DNA of 64,000 bases from Candidatus Marinacidobacterium sp. (GTDB taxonomy: Bacteria > Acidobacteriota > Vicinamibacteria > Marinacidobacterales > Marinacidobacteraceae): the NCBI GenBank assembly GCA_965204755.1, contig OZ242011.1:896001-960000 (forward strand). Direction: 5' to 3'. How positions within the stretch are numbered: position 1 is the stretch's first letter; every line of letters begins with the position of its first letter. The notes below the pieces were generated by a model. The model had not been told where the DNA came from. It saw only the letters and a list, made by a program, of their open reading frames with translations, and made no database searches. Made by a program: the position numbers and the translations under genes. Shown here piece after piece: positions 47,701 to 64,000 of this stretch.

Positions 47701-50700
47701 CCCAGGCCCAGCCGGGCGTCGGTGTCCCGGGCGTCGGCGATCGTCCCGCCGTTCAGCGCGAGCGCCGAGGCGGCGACGGTGATCCCGTCGGCGTCCGCGT
47801 CGCCGGCGGCGACGGCGTAGGCGAAGACCAGGTCCCTCGTCCCGCTGCCGGAGGCGTAGGCCGCCTGCCGGGTGTTCGCGCCGACCGTGAGCGCCAGTCG
47901 GGGGGTCCCGGTAACCGTCACCTCTTCGCTGAAGGTCACCGTCGCCTCGATCCGGTCGCCGGCGATGAAGACCCCGTTCGCGCCCTGGGCGAGGCCCCCG
48001 AGGGAGAGGCCGGTCACCGTCGGCGGGACCGCCTCCGGGGCGCTCCCGTTCACCGCCGGGCCGCCGGCGGCGAGGGCGTGCTCGCCGAGGCCGAGGGAGG
48101 CGGCGTTCGGCGGGGTCGCCAGGTCGCGGATCGTCCCGCCGTTCGATTCGAGCGCCGAGGCGGAGACGGTGATCCCGTCGGCGTCGGTGTCGGAGCGGAC
48201 GACGGTGTAGCGGAAGACCGGCGAAGAGGTCCCGCTGCCGGAGTGGTAGGCCGCGTACCGCGTCCCGCTGGCGAGGGTGAGGGCCACCCGCGGGGTCCCG
48301 GTAACCGTTACCGGCTCGTCGAACTCGACGGTGAGGTCGAGGTGGTCGCCGGCGATGAAGACGCCGCCGGGGCCGGTCCCGGTCCCGCCGGCGGCGAGCC
48401 CGACCACCGTCGGGGCGCGGGCGTCGGCCCCCCGGCCGTTCACCCGGGCGCCGGCGTCGTCGGTCAGCGCGTGGGATCCGAGGGAGAGCGCGGCGGCGTT
48501 CCCCGAGGCGTCGGCGAGCGTCCCGCCGTTCAGCGAAAGCGCCGAGCCCCCGACGGAGACGCCGCTCGGGTCGGAGTCGCCGGAGACGACGGTGTAGCGG
48601 AAGACCAGTTCGGAAGTCCCGCCGCCGGAGGAGTAGTCGGCGCGGCGCGCCCCGCTGGCGAGGATGAGGGTGACCTGCGGGGTCCCGGTAACCGTTACCG
48701 GCTCGTCGAAGGCGAGGGTCGCCTCGATCGCGTCGCCGGCGATGAAGACGCCGCCCGCGCCCTGGGCCAGGCCCCCGAGGGTCGCGCCGGTTACCGCCGG
48801 GCCGGCGAGGTCCGCGCCGTCCCCGTCCACGAGGAAGCCGGCCGGGCGGTAGTTCAGGTCCTGCGCCGAAGGGCCCCGGTTGCCGGCGCGGTCCTCGATG
48901 CCCCAGGAGGTGGCCGACTGGAACAGGACCCAGGTCATGCTCCCGCCGGCGTACTCGTCGGCGGAAGCGACCGCGTAGCGGTAGCGGAGCAGCGCCGAAC
49001 CCGATCCCGAGGAGTACCGGACGCGCCGCTGGTTCGCGAGCGTGTCGGCGCCGAAGTACACGGTGAGGTGGGGCGTCCCGGTCCCGGTAACCGTTACCGG
49101 CTCCGAGAACCGCACTTCCCAGACGATCACATCGCCGGCCACGAAGGCGCCGCCGGGGCCGGAGCCGGTCCCGGTCGGGGTAACCGAGAGGACCCGCGCC
49201 CCGACCGAGTCCACGAAGGCGCCGTTCACCGGGAAGTCGCTGTTGTCGCTGATCGCGTGGCTTCCGAGGGCCAGGGCCGCGTCGTTCGGCGTAGCCGCGC
49301 CGTCCCGGATGGTCCCGCCGTTCAGGGTGAGCGCCGAGGCGGTAACGGAGATGCCGTCCCCGTCGGTGTCCCCGGCGACCACCTGGTAGCGGAAGACCAG
49401 CGCGGCGGTCCCGCTGCCGGAGGCGTAGTCCACCTGGCGGATATCCGCGCCGATCCCGAACGCCAACTGCGGGGTCCCGGTAACCGTTACCGGCTCGCTG
49501 AAGGTGACCGTCGCCTCGATCTCGTCGCCGGCCCGGTAGGTCCCGCCGGCGCCCTGCGGCGCCGGGGGGACCCCGGCGAGGGTCAGCCCGGTAACCGTCG
49601 GGCTGAGGGTGTCCGCCGCGCTCCCGTCCACGACCGAGTTCGGGGCGGCGGTTACGGCGTGGTCGCCGAGGGCGAGGGCGGCGGCGTTCCCCGAGGCGTC
49701 CTCGATCCTCCCGCCGTTCAGGGAGAGCGCGGAGACGCCGATCCCGTCGGCGTCGGCGTCGGCGGGGACGACGGTGTAGCGGAAGACCGCCGCGGCCGTC
49801 CCGCTGCCGGAGGACTCGTAGTCCGCCCGGCGGGTGTTCGCGCCGACGGCGAGGACCGCCTGCGGGTTCCCGGTAACCGTTACCGGCTCGCTGAAGGCCG
49901 CGGTGATTTCGAGGGCGTCCCCGGCGATGAAGACGCCGTTCCGCCCCCGGCCCGAACCGGAGACCGTTACGCCGGTAACCGTCGGGGCGGCGGCGTCGGC
50001 GGCGGCCCCGGCCACGACGAAGCCGGCGGCGTCCGCCGCCGCGTGGGCGCCGAGGCCGAGCGCGGCGGCGTTCCCCGCGGCGTCGCGGATCGTCCCGCCG
50101 TTCAGGGCGAGCGCCGAAGCGCCGACGGAGATCCCGTCCGCGTCGGCGTCGGCGGCCGCGACGGTGTAGCGGAAGACCAGTTCCTCGTCCCCGGTCCCGG
50201 ACACATAACCCGCCTGCCGGGTGTTCGCGCCGACGGTGAGGGCGAGTTGCGGGGGCCCGGTTACCAGGGCCGCCTCGTCGAAGCGCACCGTGGCTTCGAT
50301 CCGGTCCCCGGCGATGAACGCGCCGCCGGCGCCCTGCCCGCTCCCGGAGAGCCGGAGGCCGACCACCCTCGGCCCGGTCCCGTCCGCCGCCGAGCCGCTC
50401 ACCACGAAGTTCGAGTCGTTCGCGACGGCGTGGGTCCCGAGGCCGAGCGCCGCGTCGTTCGGGGTCGCCCCGTCGGGCGCGAGGTCCTGGATCGTCCCGC
50501 CGTTCAGCGCGAGCGCGGTCGCGGCGACGGAGATCCCGTCGGCGTCGGCGTCCCCGGAGACCACCGCGTACCGGAAACGCAGGGTGGCGGTCCCGCTGCC
50601 GGAGGCGTAGTCGGCCTGCTTGTCGGTCGTCCCGATGGTGAGGGCGACCTGCGGCGTCCCGGTAACGGTTACCGCTTCGCTGAAGGTGACCGCCGCTTCG

Positions 50701-53700
50701 ACGGCGTCGCCGGCCCGGTAGGCCCCGCCCGCGCCCTGCGGCGCCGGCGGGACCCCGGCGAGGGCCAGCCCGGTAACCGTCGGCGCCGGGTCGGCGGCGC
50801 CGCCGTTCACCACCGCGTCCCCGTCGGCGATCGCGTGGGCGCCGAGGCCGAGCGCGGCGGCGTTGCCCGAGGCGTCCCGGATCGTCGCGCCGTTCAGCGC
50901 GAGGGCCGCCGCGCCGACGGAGACCCCGTCCGCGTCGGCGTCCCCGGCGGCGACGGTGTAGCGGAAGACCAGCGAAGCGGTCCCGCTGCCGGAGAAGTAG
51001 TCCGCCCGGGGCGTCCCGCCGGTGGTGGTGAGGCCGAGCGCGACCTGCGGGGTCCCGCCGACCGTAACGGGCTCGCTGAACTCGAGCGTTACCGCGAGGA
51101 CATCGCCGGCGAGGAAGACGCCGCCCGCGCCCCGGCCCGTCCCGGAGACCGCCGCCCCGGTTACCGAGGGGCCGACCGCGTCGGCGGCGTTCCCGTTCAC
51201 CGGGAAGTCGGCGGCGCGGGCCACCGCGTGGACGCCGAGGCCGAGGGCGGCGGCGTTGCCGCCGGCGTCGCCGATCGTCCCGCCGTTCAGCGCGATCTCC
51301 GAAACGCCGATCCCGTCGGCGTCCACTTCCCCGGCGCCCACCGCGTAGCGGAAGACCAGCCGGGCCGAACCGCTGCCGGAGGACTCGTAGTCCGCGTAGC
51401 GGGAGTACGCGCCGACGGCGAGCAGGAGCCGCGGCGTCCCGCCGGTCGCGTCCACCGTTACCGGCTCGCTGAAGGTGACCGCCGCCTCGATGGCGTCGCC
51501 GGCGATGTACGCGCCGTTCGCGCCCTGCGGCGCCGGCGGGACGCCGGCGAGCGAGAGCCCGGTAACCGTCGGGGCCACCGCGTCCCCGGCGGCGGCGTCC
51601 ACCGCCGGGCCGCCGGCGGTTACCGCGTGGGCGCCGAGGCCGCGCGCCGCGTCGTTCGGAGTCGCCGCCCCGTCCCGGATCGTCCCGCCGGTGAGCGCCG
51701 CCGCGCCGATGCCGATCCCGTCCGCGTCGGCGTCGCCGGAGGCCACGGTGTAGCGAAGACCAGCGAAGTCGTCCCGCTCCCGGAGGCGTAGGCGGCCTGG
51801 CGGATGGCGCTGCCGATGGTGAGCGCCACCTGCGGGGACCCGGTAACCGTTACCGGCTCGCTGAACTCGACCGTGACTTCGAGGACATCGCCGAGGACGA
51901 AGGTCCCGTTCGCGCCCTGCGCCTCGCCGCCGACGGTGACCCCGGTAACCGTCGGGGCGGCGGCGTCGGCGCCGCCCCCGGCCACCACGAAGCCGCCGTC
52001 GTCCGCGATCCCGTCCCTGCTGGTCGCGCCGCCGGCGAGGTCGGCGGCGTTGCCGGAGGCGTCGGTGATGCTCCCGCCGTTCAGCGCGAGCGCGGAGGCG
52101 GGGACGGCCACGCCGTCGGCGTCGGCGTCCCCGGAAACGACGGTGTAGCGGAAGACCAACGATCTCGTCCCGCTGCCGGAGGCGTAGTCGGCCTGGCGGG
52201 TGGGCGCGCCGACGCCGACGCCGACGGCGAGGGCCAGCCGCGGCGTCCCGGTAACCGTTACCCGCTCGCTGAACTCCACCGCCGCCTCGATCGCGTCCCC
52301 GGCGATGAAGGCGCCGCCCGCGCCCTGCCCGGTTCCCGAGAGGGTCACGCCGGTAACCGTCGGCGCCTGCAGGTCCGCCGCCGCCCCGTCCACCGGGAAG
52401 TCCGGGTGGTCGGCGACCGCGTGGGGCCCGAGGCCGAGCGCCGCCGCGTTGCCGGAGGCGTCCGCGATCGTCCCGCCGTTCAGGGCGAGCGCGGAGGCGG
52501 GGAGGCCCGCGCCGTTCGGGTCGGCGTCCCCCCGGACGACGAGGTAGCGGAAGGTCAGCGAGTCCGTCCCGCTGCCGGCGGCGTAGTCGGCGAGGCGGGT
52601 GGCCGCGCCGACGGTGATCGCCGCCTGCGGGGTCCCGGTAACCGTTACCTCCTCGCTGAAGACCACCACCGCCTCGAGTTCGTTTCCGGCGACGAAGACG
52701 ACGCCTTCGCGGCCGCCGCTGCCGCCGTCCGGGTTCCCGGCGAGCCGGGCCCCGACCACCGTCGGGCCCACCCGGTCGCCGGCGGCGGCGTCCACCGGGA
52801 AGCCGGCGGCGTCGGCGACCGCGTGGGCGCCGAGCCCCAGCGCCGCGTCGTTCCCCGCGTCGTCCCGGATCGTCCCGCCGTTCCGGGTGAGCGCGGCGGC
52901 GGGGACGCCGAGCCCGTTCGGGTCGGAGTCGCCGGCGGCGACGGCGTAGGCGAAGACCAGCCGGGTCGTCCCGCTGCCGGATTGGTAGGCCGCCGGGCGG
53001 GTGAGCAGGCCGACCGCCAACTCCAACTGCGGGGTGCCGGTAACCGTTACCGGCTCGCTGAAGGAGACCGTCGCCTCGAAGGCGTCGCCGGCGATGAAGA
53101 CGCCGTTCGCGCCCTGCGGCGCGGTCCCGACGGCGGAGAGGCTCACCCCGGTCACCGTCGGCGCGACGGTGTCGGAGCCGCTCCCGTCCACCGGCCGGGC
53201 CGCCAGGTCTCCGTCGGCGATCGCGTGGGCGCCGAGGCCGCGCTCGGCGGCGTTCCCCGCGGCGTCGCGGATCGTCCCGCGGTTCAGTTCGAGGGCATCG
53301 GCGGCGACGCTGACCCCGTTCGCGTCGGTGTCCCCGGCGGCGACGGTGTAGCGGAAGAGCAGCGAGGAAGGCCCGCTGCCGGCGGCGCGGTAGTTCGCGT
53401 AGCGGGTGGCCGCGCCGACGGTGAGGACCAGCCGCGGCGTCCCGGTAACGGTTACCGGCTCGTCGAAGTCCACCGTGAACTCCAGGAAGTCGCCGGGGAC
53501 GGAGGTCCGGGCCGGGCCCGACGGCTCGCCGCCGGCGGTGAGCCCGGTCACCGTCGGCGGCCTCCGGTCGGCGCCGTCCCCGTCCACCGGGAAGGCGGCG
53601 GCGTCCGGGATCGCGTGGCTGCCGAGGTCGAGGGCGGCGAGGTTGCCCGCCGGGTCGGCGATCGTCCCGCCGTTCGTCCCGCCGTTGCGGGAGAGCGCCG

Positions 53701-56700
53701 AGGCGGCGACGGACACGCCGTTCGCGTCCTCGTCCCCGGCGGCGACGGTGTAGCGGAAGACCAGCGAGGAGGTCCCGCTCCCGGAGGCGTAGTCCGCCCG
53801 GCGGGCGGCCTCGCCGACGGTCAACGCCGCCTGCGGCGTCCCGGTAACGGTTACCGGCTCGCTGAACTCCACGGTGAGCGCGATCTCGTCCCCGGCGATG
53901 AAGGCGCGCGGAGCGTTGACCGAGGGGGCGGCGCCCTGGCCGGTCCCGGAGAGCGCGGCGCCGGTGACCCGGGGGGCGATCCGGTCCACCGACCCGTCCA
54001 CCCGGAAGGCGGCGTCGTCCGGGAGGGCGCGGGCGCCGAGGCCGAGCGCCGCGTTCCGGCCGGCGCGGTCGGTGATCGTCCCGCCGTTCAGCGCGAGCGC
54101 CGAGGCGGCGACGGCGACGCCGTCCGGGTCGGCGTCCCCCCGGGCGACGGTGTAGCGGAAGGTGAGCGTGGTGGAGCCGCTTCCGGAGCGGTAGTCCGCC
54201 GGCCGGGCGGCGCTCCCCACGGTGAGCGCCAGCCGGGGGGTCCCGCCGGTCGCGTCCACCGTTACCGGCTCGCTGAAGGTGACCGCCGCGTCGATGGCGT
54301 CGCCGGAGATGAAGACGCCGTTCGCGCCCTGCGGCGCGGTCCCGACGGCGGAGAGGGTGACGCCGGTTACCGAGGCCGCGGCGCGCCCGGCCCCGTCCAC
54401 CACCGCGCCGCCGGCGGCGGCGGCGTGCTCGCCGAGGTCGAGGTCGGCGGCCAGCGAGCCGTCGGCGATCCGCCCGCCGTTCGCCCGGAGCGCCGAGGCG
54501 GCGAGGGTGATCCCGTCCGCGTCGGCGTCCGCCCGGACCACGGCGTAGCGGAAGACCAGGGAGGCGGTCCCGCTGCCGGAGGCGTAGGTCGCGTAGCGGG
54601 TGGCCGACCCGATCCCGAGCGCCACCCGCGGGGCGCCGGTAACCGTCACCTCCTCGCTGAAGTCCACGGTTACTACCAGGGCGTCCCCGGCGAGGAAGGC
54701 GCCGTCCGCGCCCCGCGCCGTCCCGGAGACGGTCACCCCGGCCACCGCCGGGGCGCGGACATCGGCGGCGGCGGTGTCCACCCGGAAGCGGGGGGCGCCG
54801 ACGATGAACCCGTGGTGGAGGTGGGCCGAAAGGTCGAGCGAGGCGGCGTTGCCGGCGGCGTCCACGATGGGCCCGGCGCTCCGGCCCGGCCCTGCCTCCA
54901 CCCCCAGCGAATTGGCGAGGAATCCGATCCCGTCCGCGTCCAGGATCCGGTCGCCGGGGGCGGGGGTGGGCACCGTCCAGCGGAAGGTCAGGGAACTCGT
55001 CCCGCTGCCCGACGGCCGGCGCGCGGTACCGGTGTGGCCGGTCAGGAAGACCAGGAGGTTCGCGCCGGTGGTAACGGTTACCGGTTCGCTGAACTCGACG
55101 GTGATGGAGATCCGGTCGCCGGAGGTGAACACCCCGCCGGCGGCGCTCCCCGTCCCCGCCAGCCGGAGCCCGGTAACCCTCGGGGCGACGGTGTCCTCCG
55201 CCCCGCCCTCCACCCGGAAGCGGCGGTCGTCCGTCACCGCGTGGGCGCCGAGGCCGGGCAGCGCGTCGCGGTTCGCGCGGTCCCGGATCGTCCCGCCGCT
55301 GCGGTCGAGCGCGGAGGCGGCGACGCTGATCCCGTCGTCGTCGGCGTCGCCGCGGGCCACCCGGTAGCGGAAGCGGAGGGTGCGCGTCCCGCTGCCGAGC
55401 GCGTAGTCGGCGTAGCGGGCGGCGGTCCCGACGGTGAGCGCGAGGCGCGGGGCGCCGGTAACCGTTACCCGCTCGCTGAAAGTCACCGCCGCTTCGACGA
55501 GGTCGCCGGCGGTGAAGACGCCGCCCTCGCCCTGCCCGCTCCCGGAGAGCGCGAGCCCGGTAACCGTCGGGGCGGCGGCGTCCGTCCCGCTCCCGTCCAC
55601 CGCCGCGCCGCCGTCGGTTACGGCGTGCTCCCCGAGGCCGAGCGCGGCGGCGTTCCCGGAGGCGTCGGCGACGGTCCCGCCGTTCAACCGCAGGGCCGAG
55701 TCGCCGAGGCTGACCCCGTTCGGGTCGCGGTCCTCCGGCGCCACGGTGTAGCGGAAGACCAGGGCGGAGGTCCCGCTGCCGCGCGCGTAGTCGGCGTAGC
55801 GGAGGACCCGGCCGACGGCGAGGGCCGCCCGCGGGGTCCCGGTAACCGTCGCCGGTTCGTGGAACTCGACGGTGATCTCGAGGTCGTCGCCGGCGATGAA
55901 GACCCCTCCGGCGCCGCTGGCCACGCCGCCGACGGTTACCCCGGTTACCGCCGGCCCCTCCGCGCCGCCCCGCACCACGAAGTCGGGGTCGCTGGTTATG
56001 GCGTGGCTGCCCAGGTCGAGCGCGGCGTCGTTCCCGGCGGCGTCCCGGATGTGGCCGGCGCCGGGGATGCGGATCCCGCTGGCGCCGACCCCGGACGGGG
56101 CGGAGTGGAACCGGCTCACCTCGAGGACGAAACCCAGGTGACTCGTCCCGCTGCGGATCCCCTGCATGTAGGCGGGAGTGCTCGGGGACAGGGAGGAAAC
56201 GACCAGTTCCGGAACCCCTCCCACGGAGTGCTCGGTGATCCGCTCGCTGAACTCGACGGTGAACAGGATCTCGTCCCCGTTGACGAAGACGCCGCCGGGG
56301 CCGGAGCCGGTTCCCGAAATCGTCAGCCCGGTGATCGTCGGCGCCGCCGTGTCCGCCGCCGCGCCGTTCACCGTGGCGCCGGAGTCGTCCGCGATCGCGT
56401 GGGCGCCGAGGCCGAGCGCGGCGTTGTTGTTCGCCCGGTCCCTGATGGTCCCGCCGGCCAGCGAGAGCGCCGAGGCGCCGGCGGAGACCCCGTTCGCGTC
56501 GGCGTCGCCGGCAACCACGGCGTAGCGGAACACCAGCGCGCTCGTCCCGCTGCCGGAGGCGTAGGACGCGTACCGGGTGGCGGTCCCCACGGCGAGCGCG
56601 AGCCGGGGGGTCCCGGTAACCGTTACCGGCTCGCTGAAGGACACCGTCGCTTCCAGCACATCGCCGGCGATGAAGACGCCGTTCGCGCCCTGCGGCGCCG

Positions 56701-59700
56701 GCGCGGCGCCGGAGAGGGCCGCCCCGGTTACCGTCGGGACGACGGTGTCCGTCGCGCCCCCGGCCACCACCGGGCCGCCGTCGGTTATGGCGTGGGTCCC
56801 GAGGCCGAGCGCGGCGGCGTTCCCGGCGGCGTCGGCGATCGTCCCGCCGTTCAGGGTCAGCGCCGAAGCGCCGATCCCGACGCCGTTCGCGTCGGTATCG
56901 CCGGCGGCCACGGCGTAGCGGAAGACCAGCGCGTTCGTCCCGCTGCCGGAGGCGTAGTCCGCCCGGCGGGTGTCCGCGCCGACGGTCAGCGCCGCCTGCG
57001 GGGTCCCGGTAACCGTTACCGCTTCGGTGAAAGTGACGGTTACCTCGATTTCGTCGCCGGCGATGAAGACGCCGTTCGCGCCGCGCCCGCTGCCGGAGAG
57101 CGTCACCCCGGCCACCGTCGGCGAAGTCGCGTCCGCCCCGTCCCCGTCCAGTACGAAGTCGGGGTGGTTCGCGACGGCGTGGCTTCCCGGGTCGAGCGAC
57201 GCGTCGTTGCCGGCGGCGTCCCGGAGGGTGACGCCCCGCCACAGTTGGAGGATGCCGGTGCTGATCCCGTCCGCGTCGGCGTCGGTCGCGAGCACGGTGT
57301 AGCGGAACACCAGGGAACTCGTCCCGCTGCCGGAAACGAGTTCCGCGAGTTGCGTGTTGTGGTTGAGGTGCACGAACGCGGCGCCGCTCCCGGTCTTGGT
57401 TACCGGTTCGCTGAACTCGACGGTTACGGTGATCTCGTCCCCGGCGACGAAGACGCCGCCCGGGCCGGTTCCGGTTCCCGAAAGCGTTACCCCGGTGATC
57501 GTCGGGGCGGCCCCGTCCGCCGCGGCGCCGTTCACCGTGAAGGCGGCGTCGTTCGCGATCGCGTGGGTCCCGAGGCCGAGCGCCGCGTCGTTCGGCGTCG
57601 CGTGCTGCGACCAGTCCCCGTCGCCGATGAAGTCCTTGATCGTCCCGCCGTTCAGGGCGAGCGCCGAGGCGCCGACGCCGATGCCGTTCGCGTCGGCGTC
57701 GCCGGAGGCGACGGTGTAGCGGAACGCCAGCGTGGCCGTCCCGCTGCCGGAGGCGTAGTCGGCCTGGCGGGTGGCGCTCCCGATGGTGAGCGCCAACTGC
57801 GGGGCCCCGGTTACCCGGACCGGCTCGTCGAACTCCACCGCCGCTTCGATCGCGTCGCCGGCGCGGAAGACCCCGCCCGCGCCGGTCCCGGCGCCCGACA
57901 GCGTGAGCCCGACCACCGTCGGCGCCACCTGGTCCCGGTTCTGCCCCCGCAGGGAGAAGTCCCCGTCGCGCGCGAGCGCGTGCGACCCGAGGTCGAGCGC
58001 GGCGGCGTTCCCCGCGGCGTCCAGGATCGTCCCGCCGTTCAGCGCGAGCGCCGAGGCGCCGACGCTGAGGCCGTTCCGGAACCAGTCCCGCGCCTCCACG
58101 CGGTAGCGGAACACCAGCGAGGCCGTCCCGCTGCCGGACGCATAGTTCGCGTGGCGCGTCCCCCGGGTGTTGCCTTCGTGGCCGGTGAGCGCGAGCCGGG
58201 GCGTCCCGGTAACCGTTACCGGCTCGCTGAAGGTGATCGTCGCTTCGAGCACATCGCCGGCGATGTAGTTGTTCCGGTCGTTCTTCTTGACGCCCGCCAG
58301 CGCGGCGCCGACGACCGCGGGTTGGGCCGCGCCGGCGCTCCCGTCCACCTTGAAGTCGGGGTGGTCGGTGATGGCGTGGGTTCCGAGCGCGAGCGCCGCG
58401 TCGTTCGGCGTGGCCGCCCCGTCGGCGATCGTCCCGCCGTTCAGCGCGAGGGCCGAAGCGGTAACGGAGATCCCGTTCGCGTCGGTGTCCGCCGCCGCCA
58501 CCGTGTAGCGGAAGACCAGCGAAGTCGTGCCGCTGCCGGAGGCGTAGTCCGCCTGTTTCGTGGCCGCGCCGACGGTGAGCGCGACCTGCGGGGTCCCGGT
58601 AACGGTCACGATCTCGTCGAAGCGCGCGGTTACCTCGATCCCGTCCCCGGCGCGGAAGGCGCCGTAGTCGGCGGTCCCGGTTCCCGAGAGCGAAACGCCG
58701 ACCACCGTCGGGCTGCGGGTATCGGCGGCGGTCCCGTCCACGGTGTAGCCGCCTTGGTCGCGCAGCGCGTGGCCGCCGAGGGCGAGCGCGGCGTCGTTCC
58801 CGGCGCGGTCCCGGACGGTGGCGCCGGGCGGAGCGGCGAGCGCCGAGGCGGTAACGCTGATCCCGTTGGTATCGGTATCCCCGGAGGCGACGGTGTAGGC
58901 GAAGACCAGTTCGGTCGTCCCGCTCCCGGAGGCGTAGTCCGCCTGCCGGGTGGCGCTGCCGACGGTGAGCGCCAACTGCGGCGTCCCGGTAACGGTTACC
59001 GCTTCGCTGAAGGTTACGGTCGCTTCGATGGCGTCGCCGGGGACGAAGGCGCCGCCCGCGCCGTTCGCCACCCCGGAGAGCGAAAGGCCGGTAACCGTCG
59101 GCGCGAGGGTGTCGCTCCCGTCCCCGTCCACCGCGAGGTCGCCGTCGGTGATGGCGTGGCTCCCGAGGCCGAGCGAGGCGGCGTTCCCGGAGGCGTCGGC
59201 GATCGTCCCGCCGTTCAGCGAGAGCGCCGAAGCGGCGACGGAGATGCCGTTCGCGTCGTCGTCCGCCGTTACCACGGTGTAGGCGAACGCGAGCGAAGTC
59301 GTCCCGCTGCCGGAGGAATAGTCCGCCGGTTTCGTCGCCGCGCCGATGGTGAGCGCCAACTGCGGGGTCCCGGTAACCGTTACCGCCTCGCTGAAGGTAA
59401 CGCTCGCTTCGAGCCGGTCGCCGGCGACGAGGACGCCGCCGGTTCCCGACCCGCTTCCCGAAAGCGTCAGTCCGGTAACGGTCGGGCCGGCGGCGTCCGC
59501 CGCGCCGCCGTCCACGGTGTAGTCGTCGTCGTCGGCGATCGCGTGGGCGCCGAGGCCGAGCGAGGCGGCGTTGCCGGCGGCGTCGGTGATCGTCCCGCCG
59601 TTCAGGGCGAGCGCCGAGGCGCCGACCGAGACGCCGTCGGAGTCGGCGTCGCCGGCGGCGACGGTGTAGCGGAAGGCCAGCGAGGCCGTGCCGCTTCCGG

Positions 59701-62700
59701 AGGCGTAGTCGGCCTGGCGGGTGGCGGCGCCGACGGCGAGGGCGGCCCGCGGGGTCCCGGTAACCGTGGCCGCTTCGTGGAAGTCCACGGTTACGGTGAT
59801 CCGGTCGCCGGCGGTGAAGACGCCGTTCGCGCCGGTGCCGGTCCCGGAGAGCGAAACGCCGGTCACCCGGGGGCCGGAGAGGTCCTGGTAACTCCCCTGC
59901 ACCCGGAAGCGGAAGTCGTTCGTTACCGCGCGCGAGCCGAGGGAGAGGGTTTCGGCGGTGGCGGCGTTGCCGTCGGCGTCGGCGATGGTCCCGCCGTTCA
60001 GGGTGAGCGCCGATGCGCCGATGGAGATGCCGTCGGCGTCGGCGTCGCCGGCGGCGACGGTGTAGGTGAAGCGCAGGGTGGTCGTCCCGCTGCCGGAGGC
60101 GTAGGAGGCCTGGCGGGTGGCGGTCCCTATGGCGAGGGCCAACTGCGGGGTCCCGGTAACCGTCGCCGCCCGGTTGAACTCCACGGCGGCGGTGATCTCG
60201 TCGCCGGCGCGGAAGATGGCGCCGCCGGCGCCGCCGTTCCCCTGCCCGGAGAGCGAGACCCCGGTTACCGTCGGGCCGGAGACCGCCGCCGCGCCGCCGT
60301 CCACCAGCAGGGCGGGGTCGTCGGCGATCGCGTGGTCACCGAGGCCGAGGCTCGCGGCGCCGTCCTCGTCGGCGATGCTCCCGCCGTTCAGGGTCAGCGC
60401 CGAGGCGCCGACGGAGACGCCGTCGGTGTCGGTGTCGCCGGCGGCCACGGTGTAGCGGAAGACCAGGGTGGTCGTCCCGCTGCCGAGTGAGTAGGCCGCG
60501 TGGCGGGTGGCGCCGCCGACGGTGAGGGCGACCTGCGGGGTCCCGGTAACCGTTACCGGCTGGTCGAACGCCACCCGGACTTCGAGGGTGTCCCCGGCGA
60601 TGAAGGAACCGCTCGGCCCCCTCCCGGCCCCGGACACCGTTACCCCGGCCACGCTCGGCGGAGCGCCGTCCCCGTCCACCATGAGCGGCCCGTCGGTAAA
60701 CGCGTAGGCGGAGAGACTCAGGTTCGCCTTGACGCCGCCGGCGGTTTGGATCGTTCCGCCGTTCAACTCGAGGGCGGACGCCCCCATGCTGATGCCGTTC
60801 GCATCTTCGTCCTCCGCCTGCACCCGGTATTGGAAGTAGAGGATGGGTGCGGCGTAGGTGACGAAACTGGCGTAGCGGGTCGCGGTCCCGATACCCAGCG
60901 CCACTCGCGGCGTGCCGGTGACCACGACCGTTTGGGACGCAGACATCGAGATCTGGATACGGTTTCCGGCGATGGCGACTGCATTGCTGTGTTGGCCGTC
61001 GTAATTCGACACATGAATGTTGGTCATCGTCGGCCCGGCCGGCGCCGCGGCGCCGTCCACCGTGAAGCGGGGGTCGTCGGTGATCGCGTGGTTTCCGAGG
61101 TCGAGCGCCGCGTTGTGCGCCGCGGCCGAGGTATCCCGGATCGTCCCGCCGTTCAGCGCGAGCGCCGAAGCGCCGACGCTCACCCCGTTCGGGTCGGCGT
61201 CCCCGGTTGCCACGGTGTAGCGGAAGACCAGCGCGTTCGTGCCGCTGCCGGAGGCGTAGGCCGCCTGCCGGGTGTTCGCGCCGATCGCGAGCGCCGCCTG
61301 CGGGGTCCCGGTTACCGCCACCGGCTCGCTGAAGTCCACGGTTACCGCCAGGGAGTCCCCGGCGCGGAAGACGCCGCCGGCCCCGCTCGGCGACCCGGAG
61401 AGCGCCGCCCCGGTAACCGTCGCCCCGGTAACCGTCGGCGCGGTCTCGTCCGCCGCGCCGCCGTCCACGACGAAGGCCGGGTCGTCGGTGATCGCGTGAC
61501 CCGAAAGGTCGATCTCCGCCGCGCCGTCGGAGTCCCCGATCGTCCCCCCGTTCAGCGCCAGCGCCGAAGCGGAAACGGAGATGCCGTCGGCGTCGGAGTC
61601 GCCGGCGGCCACGGTGTAGCGGAACGCCAGCGTCGTCGTCCCGCTGCCCGAGGAGTACGGCGCCTGCCGGGTTCCGTCGCCGAGCCCGAGCGCCACCTGC
61701 GGCGCCCCGGTAACCGCCGCCGCCTGGTCGAACTCCACCCGGACCTCGACGGCGTCGCCGGCGATGAAGACCCCGTTCGCGCCCTGCCCGGTCCCCGCGA
61801 GGGACACGCCGACCACCTTCGGGACGCCGCCGTCCCCGTCCACGACGAAGGAGGAGTCGTCGGTGATCGCGTAACTGCCGAGGTCGAGCGCCGCGGCGCC
61901 TTCGGAGTCCCCGATACTCCCCCCGGCCAGCGTCAGCGCCGAAGCCCCGACGGAGACGCCGTCGGGGTCGGCGTCGGAGGCGGCCACCGTGTAGCGGAAC
62001 GCCAGCGTCGCCGTCCCGCTGCCGGAGGCGTAGTCCGCCTGCCGGGCGGTCGTCCCGACGGTGATCTCGACCTGCGGCGTCCCGCTCACCGTCGCCGGCT
62101 GGTCGAACTCCACCCGGACTTCGAGCGCGTCGCCGGCGACGAAGGCGCCGCCGGAACCGGTCCCGGTCCCCGCGAGCGTCACCCCGGCCACCCGCGGGGC
62201 GCCGCCGTCGCCGTCCACCGTGAAGTTCGGGTCGCCGGAGATCTCGTAACCGGAGAGGCCGAGCGCCGCGTTGCCGTCCGCGTCCCGGATGGCCCCCCCG
62301 TTCAGGGTCAGCGCCGCAGCCGGGACGCCCACCCCGTCGGAGTCGGCGTCGGAGGCGGCCACCGTGTAGCGGAACGCCAGCGTGGTCGTCCCGCTGCCGG
62401 AGGCGTAGTCCGCCTGCCGGGTCCGGGTCCCGACGGTGAGCGCGGCCTGCGGCGTCCCGATCACCGCCGCCGGCTGGTCGAACGACACCCGGACTTCGAT
62501 GGCGTCCCCGGCGATGAAGGCCCCGCCCGCGCCGGTCCCGCTCCCGGCGAGCGAGACCCCGGTTACCCGCGGCGGGCCGCCGTCCCCGTCCACCACCGCG
62601 TTGCCGTCGGTGATCGCGTAGCCGGAGAGGCTCAGGTCGGCGGCGACCCCGTTGGAGGAGATCGTCCCGCCGTTCGCCTCGAGCGCCGAGGCCCCGATGC

Positions 62701-63175
62701 TGAGGCCGTCCGCGTCCTCGTCCTCGACCACCACCCGGTAGGTGAACGCCAGCACCCCCGACCCCCGGTTCGCCGACCAGCCGGCGTACCGCGTCCGGCT
62801 CCCGATGCCGAGCGCCACCCGCGGCGCGCCGACCGCGGCCACCAGCGGGTCGTTGAACCGCACCCGCACCTCGATGTCGTCCCCCGCCACGAACACCCCG
62901 CCCGACCCGCTCCCGCTCCCCACCAGGTCCACCCCGCTCACCCGCGCCGGCGTCGCCTGCGCCGCCCCCGCGCGAGCGCCCGTTCCGGCCGTCCCGGCCG
63001 TCCCGGCGCCGGCGGACGAAACCGCCCCCGAAACCGCCCCCGAAGCCGCCCCCGAAACCCCCGCCGAAACGGCCAGCCCCAGGACGGCGCCGGCGAACGC
63101 CGACGCCCCCCGAAGTCCCCGGAGCCCCCGGAGCCCGAGGAGCCCGCGGACGGCCCCGAACATCGGCCCCGACAC
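1..63175 (-). CDS. Giant repetitive surface protein or adhesin (>21,000 aa, about 160 Ig-like repeats), 3'-truncated by the window edge and interrupted by three apparent 1-nt deletions
   Basis: The same ~128-aa repeat (PTVTGVSLSG..GGVFIAGD.IEVTVEFSEPVTVTGTPQLALTVG..TRQADYASGSGT..LVFRYTV..GD.D.DGISVGASAL.LNGGTI.D.AGN.A.L.LG.HA.....VDG) runs continuously through successive minus-strand frames (codon-start position mod 3 goes 1, 2, 0, 1). Each frame switch falls mid-repeat at a single missing base. There is a signal-peptide-like N-terminus and no stop before position 1. The Ig-like fold is inferred from the alternating beta-strand pattern and resemblance to bacterial Ig-like adhesin repeats. Confidence 0.88.
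2711..33225 (-). CDS. Giant adhesin segment 3 (about 79 repeats); ORF-track 2656..33282
   Basis: The 10,208-aa ORF has its true frame from APDLVPPEVV... to ...APRGANG, then goes out of frame (SSSPATP...). Confidence 0.88.
12925..13040 (-). repeat. In-frame 12-bp minisatellite (GGNA/GGVG units) inserted in one Ig repeat
   Basis: About 9 units of ggcgttcccgcc and variants, encoding EAGGNAGGVGGNGGGVAGNAGGVGGNAGGNAGGNAAGNAA. Confidence 0.85.
18770..22740 (-). repeat. Super-repeat block, copy B
   Basis: Collinear with 58330-62230. For example, cacccggaagcggaagtcg occurs near 20377 and near 59900, an offset of about 39.5 kb. Confidence 0.75.
33225..51755 (-). CDS. Giant adhesin segment 2 (about 48 repeats); the in-frame part of ORF-track 33102..57242
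   Basis: The ORF is Arg-rich nonsense until ...FAGL, then reads RYTVASGDADADG... as repeats up to ...DDPRLRVNGA, where the frame is lost again. Confidence 0.85.
51755..63175 (-). CDS. Giant adhesin segment 1 (signal peptide plus about 29 repeats); ORF-track 51620..63175
   Basis: The 3851-aa ORF reads as repeats until ...SGTTSLVF, then goes out of frame (ATPWPP...). Candidate starts are GTG at 63175 and ATG at 63163, or further upstream (see the leader feature). Confidence 0.85.
58330..62230 (-). repeat. Super-repeat block, copy A (about 10 Ig repeats)
   Basis: The order of diagnostic motifs matches block 18770-22740 (FDQP, DGDGG.P.V, AH.A, TTTLRFTY, DFRFRV.G..QDL.GPRV, SGTGTAD.G.FRAGD, GAATPNDAA). 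Confidence 0.75.
62955..63175 (-). other. Signal-peptide-like, low-complexity N-terminus with short in-frame tandem repeats
   Basis: MFGAVRGLLGLRGLRGLRGASAFAGAVLGLAVSAGVSGAASGAVSGAVSSAGAGTAGTAGTGARAGAAQA has a basic n-region, a hydrophobic h-region and several AxA sites. It includes 9-nt (GLR, AGT) and 12-nt (SGAV) repeats. Confidence 0.6.
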
Positions 63176-63308
63176 CGGACGGACCCCCGGCCCCCGCCCT
63201 ACCGGCGCGGGGCGGGGCGAACCCCCTCCCCGCGCCCTGCCCCGCGCGACCCCCTGCGCGATTCCCCGACCGACTCGCCGACCGGCGCCCCGCGCCGCCC
63301 GGCGCGCC

Positions 63309-63542
63309 CTACCGGATGATTTTCCGGGGGGGGGGGGGGGGGGGGGGGGTAGCCCTGTTACCCATCACCGGACGAAACCGCGCCCCCAAGACGACCGCCG
63401 CGACCGCCGCGACCGCCGCGCCGACCGCGCCGGGGCGCCGCCCCCCGCGAAGACCACCCCGCCCTCCCCGCGCCGCCCGGCGAGCCCTACCGGCAGTTTT
63501 TTCCGGGGGGGGGGGGGGGGGGGGGGCAGCCCTGAGCCTCAT
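63309..63542 (-). CDS. Leader ORF (77 aa, two poly-Pro runs); probably the out-of-frame 5' portion of the giant gene
   Basis: MRLRAA-P7-EKTAGRARRAARG...AVGAAVAAVAAVVLGARFRPV-MGNRAT-P7-RKIIR*. Removing one base from the second C tract fuses it in frame with the giant ORF. Confidence 0.5.
   Translation of the reverse strand: MRLRAAPPPPPPPEKTAGRARRAARGGRGGLRGGRRPGAVGAAVAAVAAVVLGARFRPVMGNRATPPPPPPPRKIIR
63326..63349. repeat. G24 homopolymer (C24 on the coding strand), candidate phase-variation tract
   Basis: 24 consecutive G, beginning 16 nt downstream of the ATG at 63365 on the minus strand. Confidence 0.85.
63505..63526. repeat. G22 homopolymer (C22 on the coding strand), candidate phase-variation tract
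   Basis: 22 consecutive G, beginning 16 nt downstream of the ATG at 63542 on the minus strand, with the same flanks as the G24 tract (tttcc[G]n(t/c)agccctg). Confidence 0.85.
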
Positions 63543-63816
63543 CGCAAGGCGAAGACGCGCGGCGCGTGGTCATGTGCGGCAGGTATCGGAAAACGCCCGC
63601 CCGCGCCGCCGCGCGGCCTTTCCCCGGCCCGACCCCGACGCGCCGGCGGGCGAGCCGCCCAAAATACCGGAATCCCCCCCGAATTTCCACCCCTAACCCC
63701 CGCGGCCCCTCCCCCGCCCCGAGGAGAGCGCCCTCTCCGGGCCCTGCCGCGAATCGCCGCGCGATTCCCCCCGCCGTCTTTCGCCGGAAGGGGGACACCC
63801 CTCCCCGCGCGCCTCC

Positions 63817-63838
63817 CGGCGACCCTCCCCGGTCGCCG
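63817..63838 (-). terminator. GC-rich hairpin directly after the upstream gene's stop codon (possible terminator or stabiliser; no U-tract)
   Basis: cggcgacc-ctcccc-ggtcgccg forms a perfect 8-bp stem with a 6-nt loop, adjacent to the TAG at 63841-63839. Confidence 0.3.
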
Positions 63839-64000
63839 CTACCCGCCGACGGACGCTCCCCCGATGTTCTCGTTGTCGCCGTCGTCCTCCGGCGGCGGCG
63901 CGTTCTCCAGGATGAAGTCCATCAGGCTGGGAATCCCCGGCTCCCAACTCAGCGTCCCCCGCGCCTGCCAAACGAACCCGAGACGCTCCAGCGCCTCCGC
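63839..64000 (-). CDS. 3' end of an upstream gene; probable AAA/P-loop ATP-binding protein C-terminus (partial)
   Basis: The frame is open from the window edge: AEALERLGFVWQARGTLSWEPGIPSLMDFILENAPPPEDDGDNENIGGASVGG*. The composition is protein-like. The LG(F/Y)VW...WEPGIPSLMD motif resembles C-termini I recall from AAA-family ATPases, but that assignment is from memory and unverified. Confidence 0.6.
   Translation of the reverse strand, partial: AEALERLGFVWQARGTLSWEPGIPSLMDFILENAPPPEDDGDNENIGGASVGG

What the first reader, a model, noticed from the sequence alone, without database searches (positions are those of the whole stretch)
63173..63542. Tandem double poly-C leader: two slipped-strand switches in series controlling a >63-kb gene
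Seen: the region upstream of the giant ORF is a diverged tandem duplication (unit A 63542-63366, unit B 63365-63173). Each unit reads ATG-N6-AGGGCT(G/A)-(C)22 or (C)24-GGAAAA...CCGGTAGGGC.CGCCGGGCGGCGCGGGG...CGTCCGGTG. Unit A is in frame into the ATG of unit B. Unit B with C24 stops at RKIIR*. With C23 (or C20, C26) it reads MGNRAT-Pn-GKSSGRARRAARG...RPVSGPMFGAVRG... directly into the adhesin, reproducing the GRARRAARG and RPV peptides of unit A. That conservation argues the fused frame is the real one. Established: long poly-C/G tracts just after start codons cause ON/OFF phase variation of surface genes in Neisseria, Campylobacter and Helicobacter. Inference: two tracts in series act as an AND gate if translation starts at 63542. 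If both ATGs are used, they select between N-termini with one or two basic-plus-hydrophobic signal-like segments. Either way a very costly ~2-MDa protein would be expressed in only part of the population. The G-runs on the template strand could also form G-quadruplexes.
Basis: partly seen in the sequence, partly recalled or inferred. Interest (0 to 1): 0.85.

Follow-up and report, generated by a model that had tools for sequence, protein, structure and literature searches.

The report
Twin poly-C switches before giant adhesin
Two long runs of C, each just after its own start codon, sit in front of an enormous surface-adhesin gene of a sponge-associated acidobacterium and most likely flip its translation on and off by slipping in length, as dozens of similar runs seem to do elsewhere in this genome.

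Summary
The sequence observation is right. ATG-N13-C22 (tract 63505-63526) and ATG-N13-C24 (tract 63326-63349) lie on the minus strand in a diverged tandem duplication, with the frames as described.

The ">63-kb gene" is not one ORF. It is a ~112-kb array of 286 Ig-like repeats with an autotransporter-type C-terminus, cut by five frameshifts in this assembly. The first piece is 3851 aa.

Context favours phase variation:
- The genome (sponge-associated Vicinamibacteria) has 37 G/C runs of 14-34 nt and none of 10-13.
- 20 of 24 same-family genomes have such runs, against 2 of 16 in sister families.
- Many runs sit 9-30 nt after a start codon of envelope genes, in mixed in-frame and out-of-frame states.
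- A paralogous, intact 10,601-aa adhesin carries the same double leader.
- The peptide GRAR(V)RAARG recurs in both units and in a sister-species leader ORF. All 6 variable sites are synonymous, so that frame is probably translated.
- In all three, that frame delivers ribosomes to the next start codon, by fusion or by a stop/start overlap.

Tract-length heterogeneity could not be measured, because the read tool masks the tracts. Start-codon use and gene integrity remain open.

Verdict: a probable translational contingency switch, a new variant of a known kind.

The parts
63664..63674 (-). Conserved 11-mer GATTCCGGTAT, a candidate promoter or operator element about 120 nt upstream of ATG_A
   Evidence: It occurs 2 times in the genome, and both copies are at the homologous place of the two adhesin leaders. 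No sigma-70 consensus was found by the scan.
63556..63573 (-). Second upstream ATG within the block ATGACCACGCGCCGCGCG, 31 nt before ATG_A and in another frame
   Evidence: The block is present only at the two adhesin leaders and is aligned.
63540..63542 (-). ATG_A, start of leader ORF A (MRLRAA-Pn...)
   Evidence: The ATG is invariant in all four leader units.
63505..63526 (-). Poly-C tract A (C22 as assembled)
63465..63491 (-). Codons for GRARRAARG in unit A
   Evidence: The sites that vary among the three copies are all third codon positions.
63392..63430 (-). 9-nt tandem repeat (GCGGCGGTC) that encodes the hydrophobic AAV run of leader ORF A
   Evidence: family D4. The contig of run X7 has 9 nt more behind 63415.
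63363..63367 (-). TGATG: the stop of leader ORF A in its C21/C24 frame overlaps ATG_B (63365-63363)
63326..63349 (-). Poly-C tract B (C24 as assembled, one base out of the adhesin frame)
63287..63313 (-). Codons for GRARRAARG in unit B, in the adhesin frame
63164..63325 (-). 162-nt spacer between tract B and the adhesin's own ATG. It is open only in the adhesin frame and lacks the GC3 signature of coding DNA.
   Evidence: GC by codon position is 0.85/0.85/0.78, against 0.74/0.63/0.96 in the gene.
63155..63178 (-). Two copies of a 12-nt repeat (P-V-S-G / P-M-F-G) that contains the adhesin's own ATG at 63163
   Evidence: The contig of run X7 carries 24 nt more here, an in-frame addition.
63059..63163 (-). 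Own ATG plus a signal-peptide-like N-terminus (MFGAVRGLLGLRGLRGLRGASAFAGAVLGLAVSAG)
   Evidence: Translation. The signal-peptide reading was made by eye; no signal-peptide predictor was run.
51620..63175 (-). First ORF piece of the adhesin (3851 aa) made of ~130-aa Ig-like repeats
51603..51979 (-). Frameshift 1: one repeat unit is split between two frames (profile positions 2-76, then 76-127)
32887..33569 (-). Frameshift 2, located between repeat units
2414..2796 (-). Frameshift 3: one repeat unit is split (profile positions 1-27, then 25-125)
1..51757 (-). Remainder of the repeat array inside the window. It runs on to genome position 847146, where it ends in an autotransporter-type C-terminal domain.

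Best explanation
Both tracts are hypermutable homopolymers of the contingency-locus kind. They lie inside short leader ORFs in the 5' leader of a giant autotransporter-type adhesin gene. Each unit is a start codon, 4-5 codons, a poly-C (poly-Pro) tract and an Arg-rich peptide (GRARRAARG). Slipped-strand gain or loss of a C sets the frame of the leader ORF. One frame in three, the one that encodes GRARRAARG, carries ribosomes on. For unit A this frame reads in phase into ATG_B; a second frame of unit A ends at a TGA that overlaps ATG_B. For unit B this frame reads straight through the adhesin's own ATG and signal peptide. The other frames of unit B stop 145 or about 40 nt short of that ATG. As assembled, A is in the carrying frame (C22) and B is one base out (C24), so the gene reads as OFF. 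Shown here: the anatomy, the frames, the genome-wide and family-wide tract system, the paralogous double leader, and the synonymous-only variation of the peptide. Inferred: that tract lengths actually vary, that these ATGs are used, and that frame decides adhesin output.
For: (1) G/C runs are bimodal: at most 9 nt, or 14-34 nt (37 tracts). Runs of 14 nt or more occur in 20 of 24 same-family relatives but in only 2 of 16 genomes from two sister families. G001 has 48.
(2) 9 of 37 tracts have an ATG 9-30 nt upstream at the 5' end of a GC3-rich ORF, against 903 of 20,000 random positions.
(3) Twelve such tract-headed genes were read. Five are in frame and seven are out of frame as assembled, including paralog sets in different states. 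Those scanned are envelope proteins: GDSL hydrolase and PMT_2 glycosyltransferase above the Pfam cut-off, and lipoproteins. A further tract-associated ORF with no start codon close to its tract is an arylsulfotransferase above the cut-off.
(4) The intact 10,601-aa paralog has the same double leader, and its proximal tract fuses at C30/C33.
(5) In G001 a giant Calx-beta ORF has ATG-43 nt-C22 followed by a signal-peptide-like segment, with no start codon between the tract and that segment.
(6) GRAR(V)RAARG occurs only at units A and B in the six-frame translation of G000 (2 hits). Its DNA pattern occurs in 2 of 28 family genomes, the third copy being a G001 leader ORF. All 6 variable sites lie on third codon positions (P = 2.8e-4).
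(7) In all 3 copies the motif frame delivers ribosomes to the next start: in phase to ATG_B, fused to the adhesin, or an ATGA overlap with the UDP-glucose-dehydrogenase-like gene start in G001.
(8) Length differences between strains in the leader are 9 and 24 nt, both multiples of 3.
Against: - No read-level tract lengths were obtained, because masks both tracts.
- The 162-nt spacer has no GC3 excess (0.78 against 0.96 in the gene). It would be open in the needed frame by chance about 60% of the time.
- The adhesin has its own ATG and a plausible signal peptide; fusion would place about 75 extra basic residues in front of it.
- No Shine-Dalgarno-like sequence precedes ATG_A or ATG_B, whereas three tract-headed lipoprotein genes have one.
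- The in-phase A-to-B relation is not kept in the paralog.
- The third CCGGTAGGGC copy (63205) is read in a different frame, so the repeat is partly a DNA-level feature.
- The synonymous-site test used a frame and a 3-nt gap chosen after seeing the data.
- The gene carries five frameshifts in this assembly, while three other ORFs of 6,628-10,696 codons (stop to stop) in the same genome have none.
Confidence: 0.6

Rival explanations
1. The tracts act before translation. They lie in the promoter or 5' untranslated leader and change transcription or RNA fate, for example by the spacing of promoter elements, a C-rich Rho loading site, or G-runs on the template strand. The adhesin always starts at ATG 63163 or GTG 63175, so the reading frame of the leader is irrelevant.
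For: The adhesin has its own ATG and a signal-peptide-like start. The spacer lacks coding composition. No Shine-Dalgarno sequence precedes ATG_A or ATG_B. A conserved 11-mer upstream could be a promoter element. Promoter homopolymers that tune adhesin transcription are known: sabA has a poly-T tract in its promoter besides CT repeats in its 5' coding region (PMC3960876, passages read).
Against: The ATG 15-16 nt before the tract is invariant in all four units, while the codons after it vary. GRARRAARG varies only at synonymous sites. Tracts of 22-34 nt are too long for a -35/-10 spacer (general knowledge). No sigma-70-like promoter was found around either tract. The native leader RNA folds less well than its shuffles, z = +3.9.
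Confidence: 0.15
2. The locus is a relic. The adhesin is a decaying pseudogene in this strain, and the duplicated leader no longer controls anything.
For: There are five frameshifts in 112 kb, and four of them split a repeat unit. Three other stop-to-stop ORFs of 6,628-10,696 codons in the same assembly are uninterrupted. The proximal tract is out of frame as assembled.
Against: GC3 stays at 0.93-0.98 in each piece, and no in-frame stops accumulate inside the pieces. Leader motifs are conserved. The same locus is abundant in contigs of several runs. The frameshifts could be consensus errors in a highly repetitive array; this was not tested.
Confidence: 0.12
3. There is no switching. The tracts have one fixed length and simply encode poly-proline, C24 is a consensus miscall of an in-frame C23, and the gene is constitutively read from ATG_B or ATG_A.
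For: Homopolymers of 22-24 nt are error-prone on every sequencing platform (general knowledge). Only one base separates the assembled state from the in-frame state.
Against: Seven of the twelve tract-headed genes read are out of frame, by +1 or by +2, including members of paralog sets. The gap in run lengths between 9 and 14 nt, with a broad spread from 14 to 34, is not what a conserved poly-Pro or poly-Gly motif would give. In Neisseria, mutability is reported to rise with tract length, with a modal length of only 9 and ranges such as G(9-21) (PMC5953494, passages read).
Confidence: 0.08
4. RNA polymerase slips on these very long runs. Every cell then makes transcripts in all three frames, and each tract works as a fixed attenuator (about one third passes) rather than as a heritable ON/OFF switch.
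For: The tracts are far longer than an RNA-DNA hybrid, so slippage without mismatch is conceivable (general knowledge, not tested here).
Against: Slippage is best documented on A/T runs (recalled).
Confidence: 0.05

Closest known systems
Homopolymeric-tract contingency loci in the 5' coding region of surface genes (Neisseria pilC, pglA, lgt genes; Campylobacter and Helicobacter poly-G/C genes)
   Same: A G/C run shortly after the start codon of an envelope or adhesion gene. The frame depends on run length. Many such loci occur per genome, in mixed ON and OFF states. PMC5953494 (passages read) gives pilC with tracts within the reading frame, ranges such as G(9-20) and G(9-21), and a modal length of 9.
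   Different: The host is a sponge-associated acidobacterium. Tracts are 14-34 nt, with none of 10-13 nt. In this locus the tract sits in a leader ORF about 160 nt before the signal peptide, not inside it, and there are two such units in tandem. Switching itself was not observed.
Helicobacter pylori sabA: two repeat tracts on one adhesin gene
   Same: Two independent slippery tracts act on one adhesin gene (PMC3960876, passages read).
   Different: In sabA one tract is a promoter poly-T that tunes transcription and the other is a CT repeat in the coding 5' end. Here both are poly-C tracts behind start codons, arranged as a tandem duplication.
Bordetella fim promoter poly-C stretches and Moraxella uspA1 poly-G leader tract
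   Same: A G/C homopolymer upstream of a surface-structure gene changes its expression.
   Different: Those act on transcription and have no associated start codon or conserved peptide frame.
Leader ORFs translationally coupled to the downstream gene by overlapping stop and start codons (ATGA, TGATG); general bacterial mechanism
   Same: Leader ORF A in its C21/C24 frame stops at a TGA overlapping ATG_B. The paralog's proximal leader ORF at C32 stops at a TGA overlapping the adhesin ATG. The G001 leader ORF at C24 ends in ATGA at the start of a UDP-glucose-dehydrogenase-like gene.
   Different: Here a hypermutable tract inside the leader ORF would decide whether the coupling frame is read. I found no description of this combination, but my searches were few (see Tried and rejected).
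Type Va autotransporter and fibrillar adhesins with long Ig-like repeat stalks
   Same: A signal-peptide-like N-terminus, hundreds of beta-sandwich repeats, and a C-terminal domain whose homologs carry PF03797.
   Different: The size is about 37,300 codons if read as one gene. The repeat unit matches no Pfam or NCBIfam family. The gene is interrupted by five frameshifts in this assembly.

Membership tests
Simple-sequence contingency locus (slipped-strand phase variation) | A repeat tract long enough to slip, beyond what base composition gives | tested here: met
   C22 and C24. The genome has 37 runs of 14-34 nt and none of 10-13 nt, while counts fall 1955, 266, 45, 5 for 6-9 nt.
Simple-sequence contingency locus (slipped-strand phase variation) | The tract lies within or just upstream of the 5' end of a gene, so that its length alters expression | tested here: met
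   The tract lies 16 nt after an ATG, and one length class in three joins that ATG to the adhesin ORF. The same layout is found at 9 of 37 tracts against 903 of 20,000 random positions.
Simple-sequence contingency locus (slipped-strand phase variation) | Tract length differs among cells or strains | tested here: inconclusive
   Read laying masks 63316-63357 and 63492-63535, so no length could be read. Two metagenome scans found no other copy.
Simple-sequence contingency locus (slipped-strand phase variation) | Expression state follows tract length | not testable with these tools
   This needs RNA or protein data, or reporter constructs.
Type Va (classical) autotransporter | C-terminal beta-barrel translocator (Pfam PF03797) | tested here: inconclusive
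   Direct Pfam and NCBIfam scans of the last 800 aa gave no hit at E <= 0.1, and the AlphaFold model was unusable (pLDDT 35.5). Indirect support: 4,558 homologs, in which the domain lies at or near the C-terminal end in nearly all of the 150 listed; 4 of 10 homologs scanned carry PF03797 above the cut-off in the aligned part; the language-model search gave 28 of 30 nearest clusters as autotransporter, best score 0.97.
Type Va (classical) autotransporter | N-terminal Sec signal peptide | not tested
   Read by eye only: a basic stretch, then AFAGAVLGLAV, then SAG. No predictor was available.
Type Va (classical) autotransporter | Passenger and barrel encoded in one polypeptide | tested here: not met
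   Five frame changes separate the signal peptide from the C-terminal domain in this assembly. The paralog meets the criterion, with 10,601 aa uninterrupted.
Translationally coupled leader ORF | An upstream ORF whose stop overlaps or abuts the downstream start codon | tested here: met
   Met for A to ATG_B (TGATG, C21/C24 frame), for the paralog's proximal unit (TGATG at C32) and for the G001 leader (ATGA at C24). Not met for unit B to ATG 63163, where only in-frame fusion exists.

The most novel reading that the evidence does not exclude
A whole family of sponge-symbiotic Acidobacteriota runs a genome-wide contingency system on unusually long poly-C/G tracts. In this locus the system takes a compound form: two tract-bearing leader ORFs in series, each with three outcomes (fused, stop/start-coupled, uncoupled) and a selected Arg-rich leader peptide. 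Together they would make a multi-state translational rheostat for a ~37,000-residue autotransporter, which would be one of the largest bacterial genes if intact.
Probability: 0.25. Interest if true: 0.75.

Novelty: new variant of a known kind. Interest (0 to 1): 0.6.

Why it matters
Phase variation through simple repeats is textbook biology for a few animal pathogens. If it holds here, uncultured sponge symbionts of the phylum Acidobacteriota use the same bet-hedging on their envelope (adhesins, lipoproteins, glycosyl- and sulfo-transferases, acyl-hydrolases). That bears on how symbionts escape host phagocytosis and phages.

The tandem leader adds a testable design: a slippery tract inside a leader ORF that decides whether ribosomes are handed to the next start codon.

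There is also a practical point. Such tracts break assemblies and create apparent frameshifts, so gene calls in these genomes need care.

Tried and rejected
**Read-level test**
- Four runs from four studies, all held as contigs, were laid on 62000-64000.
- The tool skipped 63316-63357 and 63492-63535, so no tract length can be stated.
- The listed contigs of X5 and X7 end at both tracts.
- One depth-2 contig of X10 spans tract A with one gap.
- A k-mer graph behaves this way either with mixed lengths or with read errors, so this counts for nothing.

**Searches for other copies**
- Two exact-pattern scans of metagenome contigs for the leader found 0 hits each.

**RNA and promoter checks**
- Rfam on 62000-64000 gave only a chance microRNA hit.
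- The RNA fold of the leader had z = +3.9, so there is no special structure.
- The sigma-70 promoter scan found 0 sites at both paralog leaders.

**Protein family and structure**
- Pfam and NCBIfam on the repeats and the C-terminus gave nothing above cut-off.
- A PDB sequence search of the C-terminus gave nothing meaningful.
- The AlphaFold model of the C-terminal 330 aa from a two-sequence alignment had pLDDT 35.5 and was unusable.
- Foldseek on the repeat model found no match at E <= 0.001.
- VIA-align gave only generic Ig-like beta-sandwich matches, Z 5-8.

**Orthologs and relatives**
- The adhesin N-terminus (200 aa) matched 1 of 5 relatives searched, and only at 31-44% identity. No orthologous leader could therefore be compared.
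- Double tracts in the fragmented genome G007 lie next to gaps and G/C palindromes and were judged unreliable.

**Literature (search listings only)**
- 'Marinacidobacter' returned 0 papers.
- Five further term sets each returned only unrelated papers: homopolymeric + phase variation + Planctomycetes; sponge + symbiont + phase variation + homopolymeric; Acidobacteria + sponge + poly-G; contingency loci + Acidobacteria; sponge + Vicinamibacteria + symbiont.
- I found no description of these tracts, but the searches were few, and supplements were not open.

**Other**
- Loss of mismatch repair as a cause was rejected: MutS (2 matches) and MutL (1 match) are present.
- Earlier notes of this scan on this genome concern unrelated loci.
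Full report
**What is there**

On the minus strand the region reads ATG (63542)-AGGCTCAGGGCTG-C22-GGAAAAAACTGCCGGTAGGGC..., and 177 nt further on ATG (63365)-GGTAACAGGGCTA-C24-GGAAAATCATCCGGTAGGGC.... The tracts are 63505-63526 and 63326-63349. The repeat finder reports the duplication as two families spaced 177-178 nt apart: 61 nt at 90% identity and 56 nt at 80%.

- Unit A at C22 reads MRLRAAP7EKTAGRARRAARG...AVGAAVAAVAAVVLGARFRPV and enters ATG_B in phase.
- Unit B at C24 stops at MGNRATP7RKIIR*.
- Unit B at C23 or C26 continues through GKSSGRARRAARG...RPVSGP into MFGAVRG..., the adhesin.

**The gene behind it**

There is no single >63-kb ORF. The ORF that follows the leader is 51620-63175 (3851 aa). 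Third-position GC (0.93-0.98) shows the coding frame jumping at window ~51.7k, ~33.2k and ~2.7k, and twice more beyond the window.

A profile built from the ~130-aa repeat finds 286 units between genome positions 959400 and 846900, with exactly five frame changes. Four of the five split a unit between two frames. The first looks like a missing C in TTCCGC. These are therefore frameshifts inside one gene, not gene boundaries.

The array ends at genome 847146 in a 330-aa domain that is 75% identical to the C-terminus of a paralog. Evidence on that domain:
- It has 4,558 homologs, and in nearly all of the 150 listed it lies at or near the C-terminal end of the protein.
- 4 of 10 homologs scanned carry Pfam PF03797 (autotransporter beta-domain) above the cut-off in the aligned part.
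- A language-model search puts 28 of 30 nearest clusters in that family.
- Direct Pfam and NCBIfam scans and an AlphaFold model were negative or unusable.

The repeat unit folds confidently (pLDDT 90.8) as a beta-sandwich, with only generic Ig-like matches that include bacterial adhesin stalk repeats.

The locus is best read as one autotransporter-type fibrillar adhesin of about 37,300 codons that is broken five times in this assembly. Three other ORFs of 6,628-10,696 codons (stop to stop) in the same genome are unbroken. The breaks are therefore either real decay or consensus errors specific to this very repetitive array. I could not tell which.

**Organism and genome-wide context**

The window lies in a 3.98-Mb, 71.7% GC, single-contig genome. 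The nearest named relatives, at 85-86% identity of a flavoprotein, are metagenome-assembled Vicinamibacteria or 'Candidatus Marinacidobacterium' genomes. Runs that hold the locus are labelled sponge metagenome or carry coded organism names.

G/C runs number 1955, 266, 45 and 5 at 6, 7, 8 and 9 nt. There are none at 10-13 nt and 37 at 14-34 nt. Runs of 14 nt or more occur in 20 of 24 same-family relatives but in only 2 of 16 genomes of two sister families. The sister species G001 has 48.

In G000, 9 of 37 tracts pass a strict test: an ATG 9-30 nt upstream, a GC3-rich ORF leaving the tract, and no coding sequence running in. Only 903 of 20,000 random positions pass.

Reading the frames of twelve tract-headed genes shows five in frame and seven out of frame as assembled. 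Examples:
- Three tandem lipoprotein paralogs (MRFT-Pn-...LTVGC) stand in different states.
- Two neighbouring GDSL-type hydrolase genes stand in different states.

Pfam labels among the tract-associated genes scanned include Lipase_GDSL_2, PMT_2 and arylsulfotransferase above the cut-off. MutS and MutL are present. This is the signature of a contingency-locus system acting mostly on translation of envelope genes.

**The same leader elsewhere**

The pattern ATG-N5-10-GCTR-C12+ occurs in 2 of 28 family genomes: four times in G000 and once in G001.

The other two G000 copies form a second double leader (C23 and C32, 203 nt apart). It stands in front of an intact 10,601-aa paralog with the same repeats and the same C-terminus. 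There the proximal tract is only 39 nt from the adhesin's ATG. Its three frames behave as follows:
- C30/C33 fuse the leader ORF to the adhesin.
- C32, the assembled state, ends the leader ORF at a TGA that overlaps the adhesin's ATG.
- C31/C34 stop at once.

The distal unit of the paralog does not read in phase into the proximal ATG, so the strict series relation is not conserved.

An 11-mer, GATTCCGGTAT, occurs only at the two leaders, about 120 nt upstream of the distal ATG. This suggests that both tracts lie in the transcribed leader.

**Is the leader translated?**

Against translation:
- The 162-nt spacer after tract B has GC 0.85/0.85/0.78 by codon position, against 0.74/0.63/0.96 in the gene. 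The first 150 nt of the gene show 0.80/0.68/0.86.
- Its open frame is expected by chance about 60% of the time.

For translation:
- GRAR.?RAARG occurs in the six-frame translation of G000 only at units A and B (2 hits, against ~0.66 expected for any given order of that composition).
- Its DNA pattern is found once more in 28 family genomes, in the G001 leader.
- Across the three copies all 6 variable sites are third codon positions and synonymous, and the one length difference is a whole codon (P = 2.8e-4, though the frame was chosen after seeing the data).
- The G001 copy lies in a 68-codon leader ORF (MTFRCP8EMK...GGRARVRAARG...). As assembled (C24), this ORF ends in ATGA on the start codon of a UDP-glucose-dehydrogenase-like gene. 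No frame is open into that gene.
- In 3 of 3 copies the motif frame is therefore the frame that hands ribosomes to the next start.
- Leader ORF A also has a second frame (C21/C24) that stops at a TGA overlapping ATG_B.
- In the contigs of run X7 the leader differs by +9 nt in the AAV repeat of unit A and by +24 nt in the 12-nt repeat around ATG 63163. Both changes keep the frame.
- In G001 a giant Calx-beta/LapA-domain ORF has ATG-43 nt-C22 directly before a signal-peptide-like segment, with no start codon between them. In G015 and G010, tracts sit between the ATG and such a segment.

**Conclusion**

The most likely reading (0.6) is that both tracts are slipped-strand frame switches inside translated leader ORFs. 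The proximal one decides whether ribosomes run into the adhesin. The distal one modulates delivery to the proximal start.

Rivals are:
- a transcription-level or RNA-level effect with a fixed start at 63163 (0.15);
- a relic leader on a dead gene (0.12);
- fixed-length tracts with a one-base consensus error (0.08);
- transcriptional slippage (0.05).

The key missing datum is the length distribution in reads.

**Comparison with known systems**

The kind is known:
- Poly-G/C tracts in reading frames, such as Neisseria pilC, have a modal length of 9 and ranges up to about 20-21 (PMC5953494, passages).
- Two repeat tracts on one adhesin gene are known for sabA (PMC3960876, passages).

What is new here:
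- the host lineage;
- the run-length regime (14-34 nt, nothing between 10 and 13);
- the placement of the tract in a leader ORF with a selected peptide and stop/start overlaps;
- the tandem arrangement;
- the size of the controlled gene.

The six literature searches listed under Tried and rejected returned nothing on such tracts in Acidobacteriota or sponge symbionts. They were listings only, and supplements were not open.

Noticed in passing
window ~51757, ~33270, ~2712; genome ~876190 and ~869700: Five frameshifts interrupt the 286-repeat adhesin array, and four of them fall in the middle of a repeat unit. The intact paralog (10,601 aa) and two other giant ORFs in the same genome have none.
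   Followed up: partly
L009 839-4393 (genome 959839-963393) and genome 844702-845910: Three tandem paralogs of a ~380-aa AAA_16/STAND-like ATPase lie directly upstream of the adhesin leader, and a fourth lies just downstream of the adhesin's end. A different P-loop protein (554 aa) precedes the paralogous adhesin.
   Followed up: partly
genome 70820-95779 (outside the window): Seven long G/C tracts lie within 25 kb. The genes there include a PMT_2 glycosyltransferase and arylsulfotransferase-like proteins. G001 has a similar cluster of six tracts within 28 kb (3253501-3281310). These look like islands of phase-variable envelope-modification genes.
   Followed up: partly
L002, L004, L006, L008 (G015, G005, G006, G010) and window 63320-63355: Across genera the tracts share a local context, CT(A/G) or TTA before the run and G(G)AAA after it, whatever the gene. 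The reason is unknown.
   Followed up: no
L005 1491-1697 (G001): A 68-codon leader ORF with a C24 tract and the GRARVRAARG motif ends in ATGA on the start codon of a UDP-glucose-dehydrogenase-like gene. This looks like a tract-dependent translational coupling device on a cytoplasmic enzyme gene.
   Followed up: partly
window 63155-63178 and 63392-63430: In the contigs of run X7 this strain's relative carries 24 nt more (two extra copies of a 12-nt unit that holds the ATG, giving three in-frame ATGs) and 9 nt more in the AAV repeat. The N-terminal region is built from 9- and 12-nt tandem repeats.
   Followed up: partly
L003, L007, L111-L114 (G017, G016, G007): In fragmented relatives many long runs lie at contig ends, beside scaffold gaps, or as G-run/C-run palindromes. 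The tracts evidently break short-read assemblies, and some of them may be artefacts.
   Followed up: no
window 449-61462 (repeat units): The ~130-aa repeat folds confidently as a beta-sandwich (pLDDT 90.8) but matches no Pfam or NCBIfam model and has only generic Ig-like structural neighbours. It may be an undescribed adhesin stalk domain family.
   Followed up: partly
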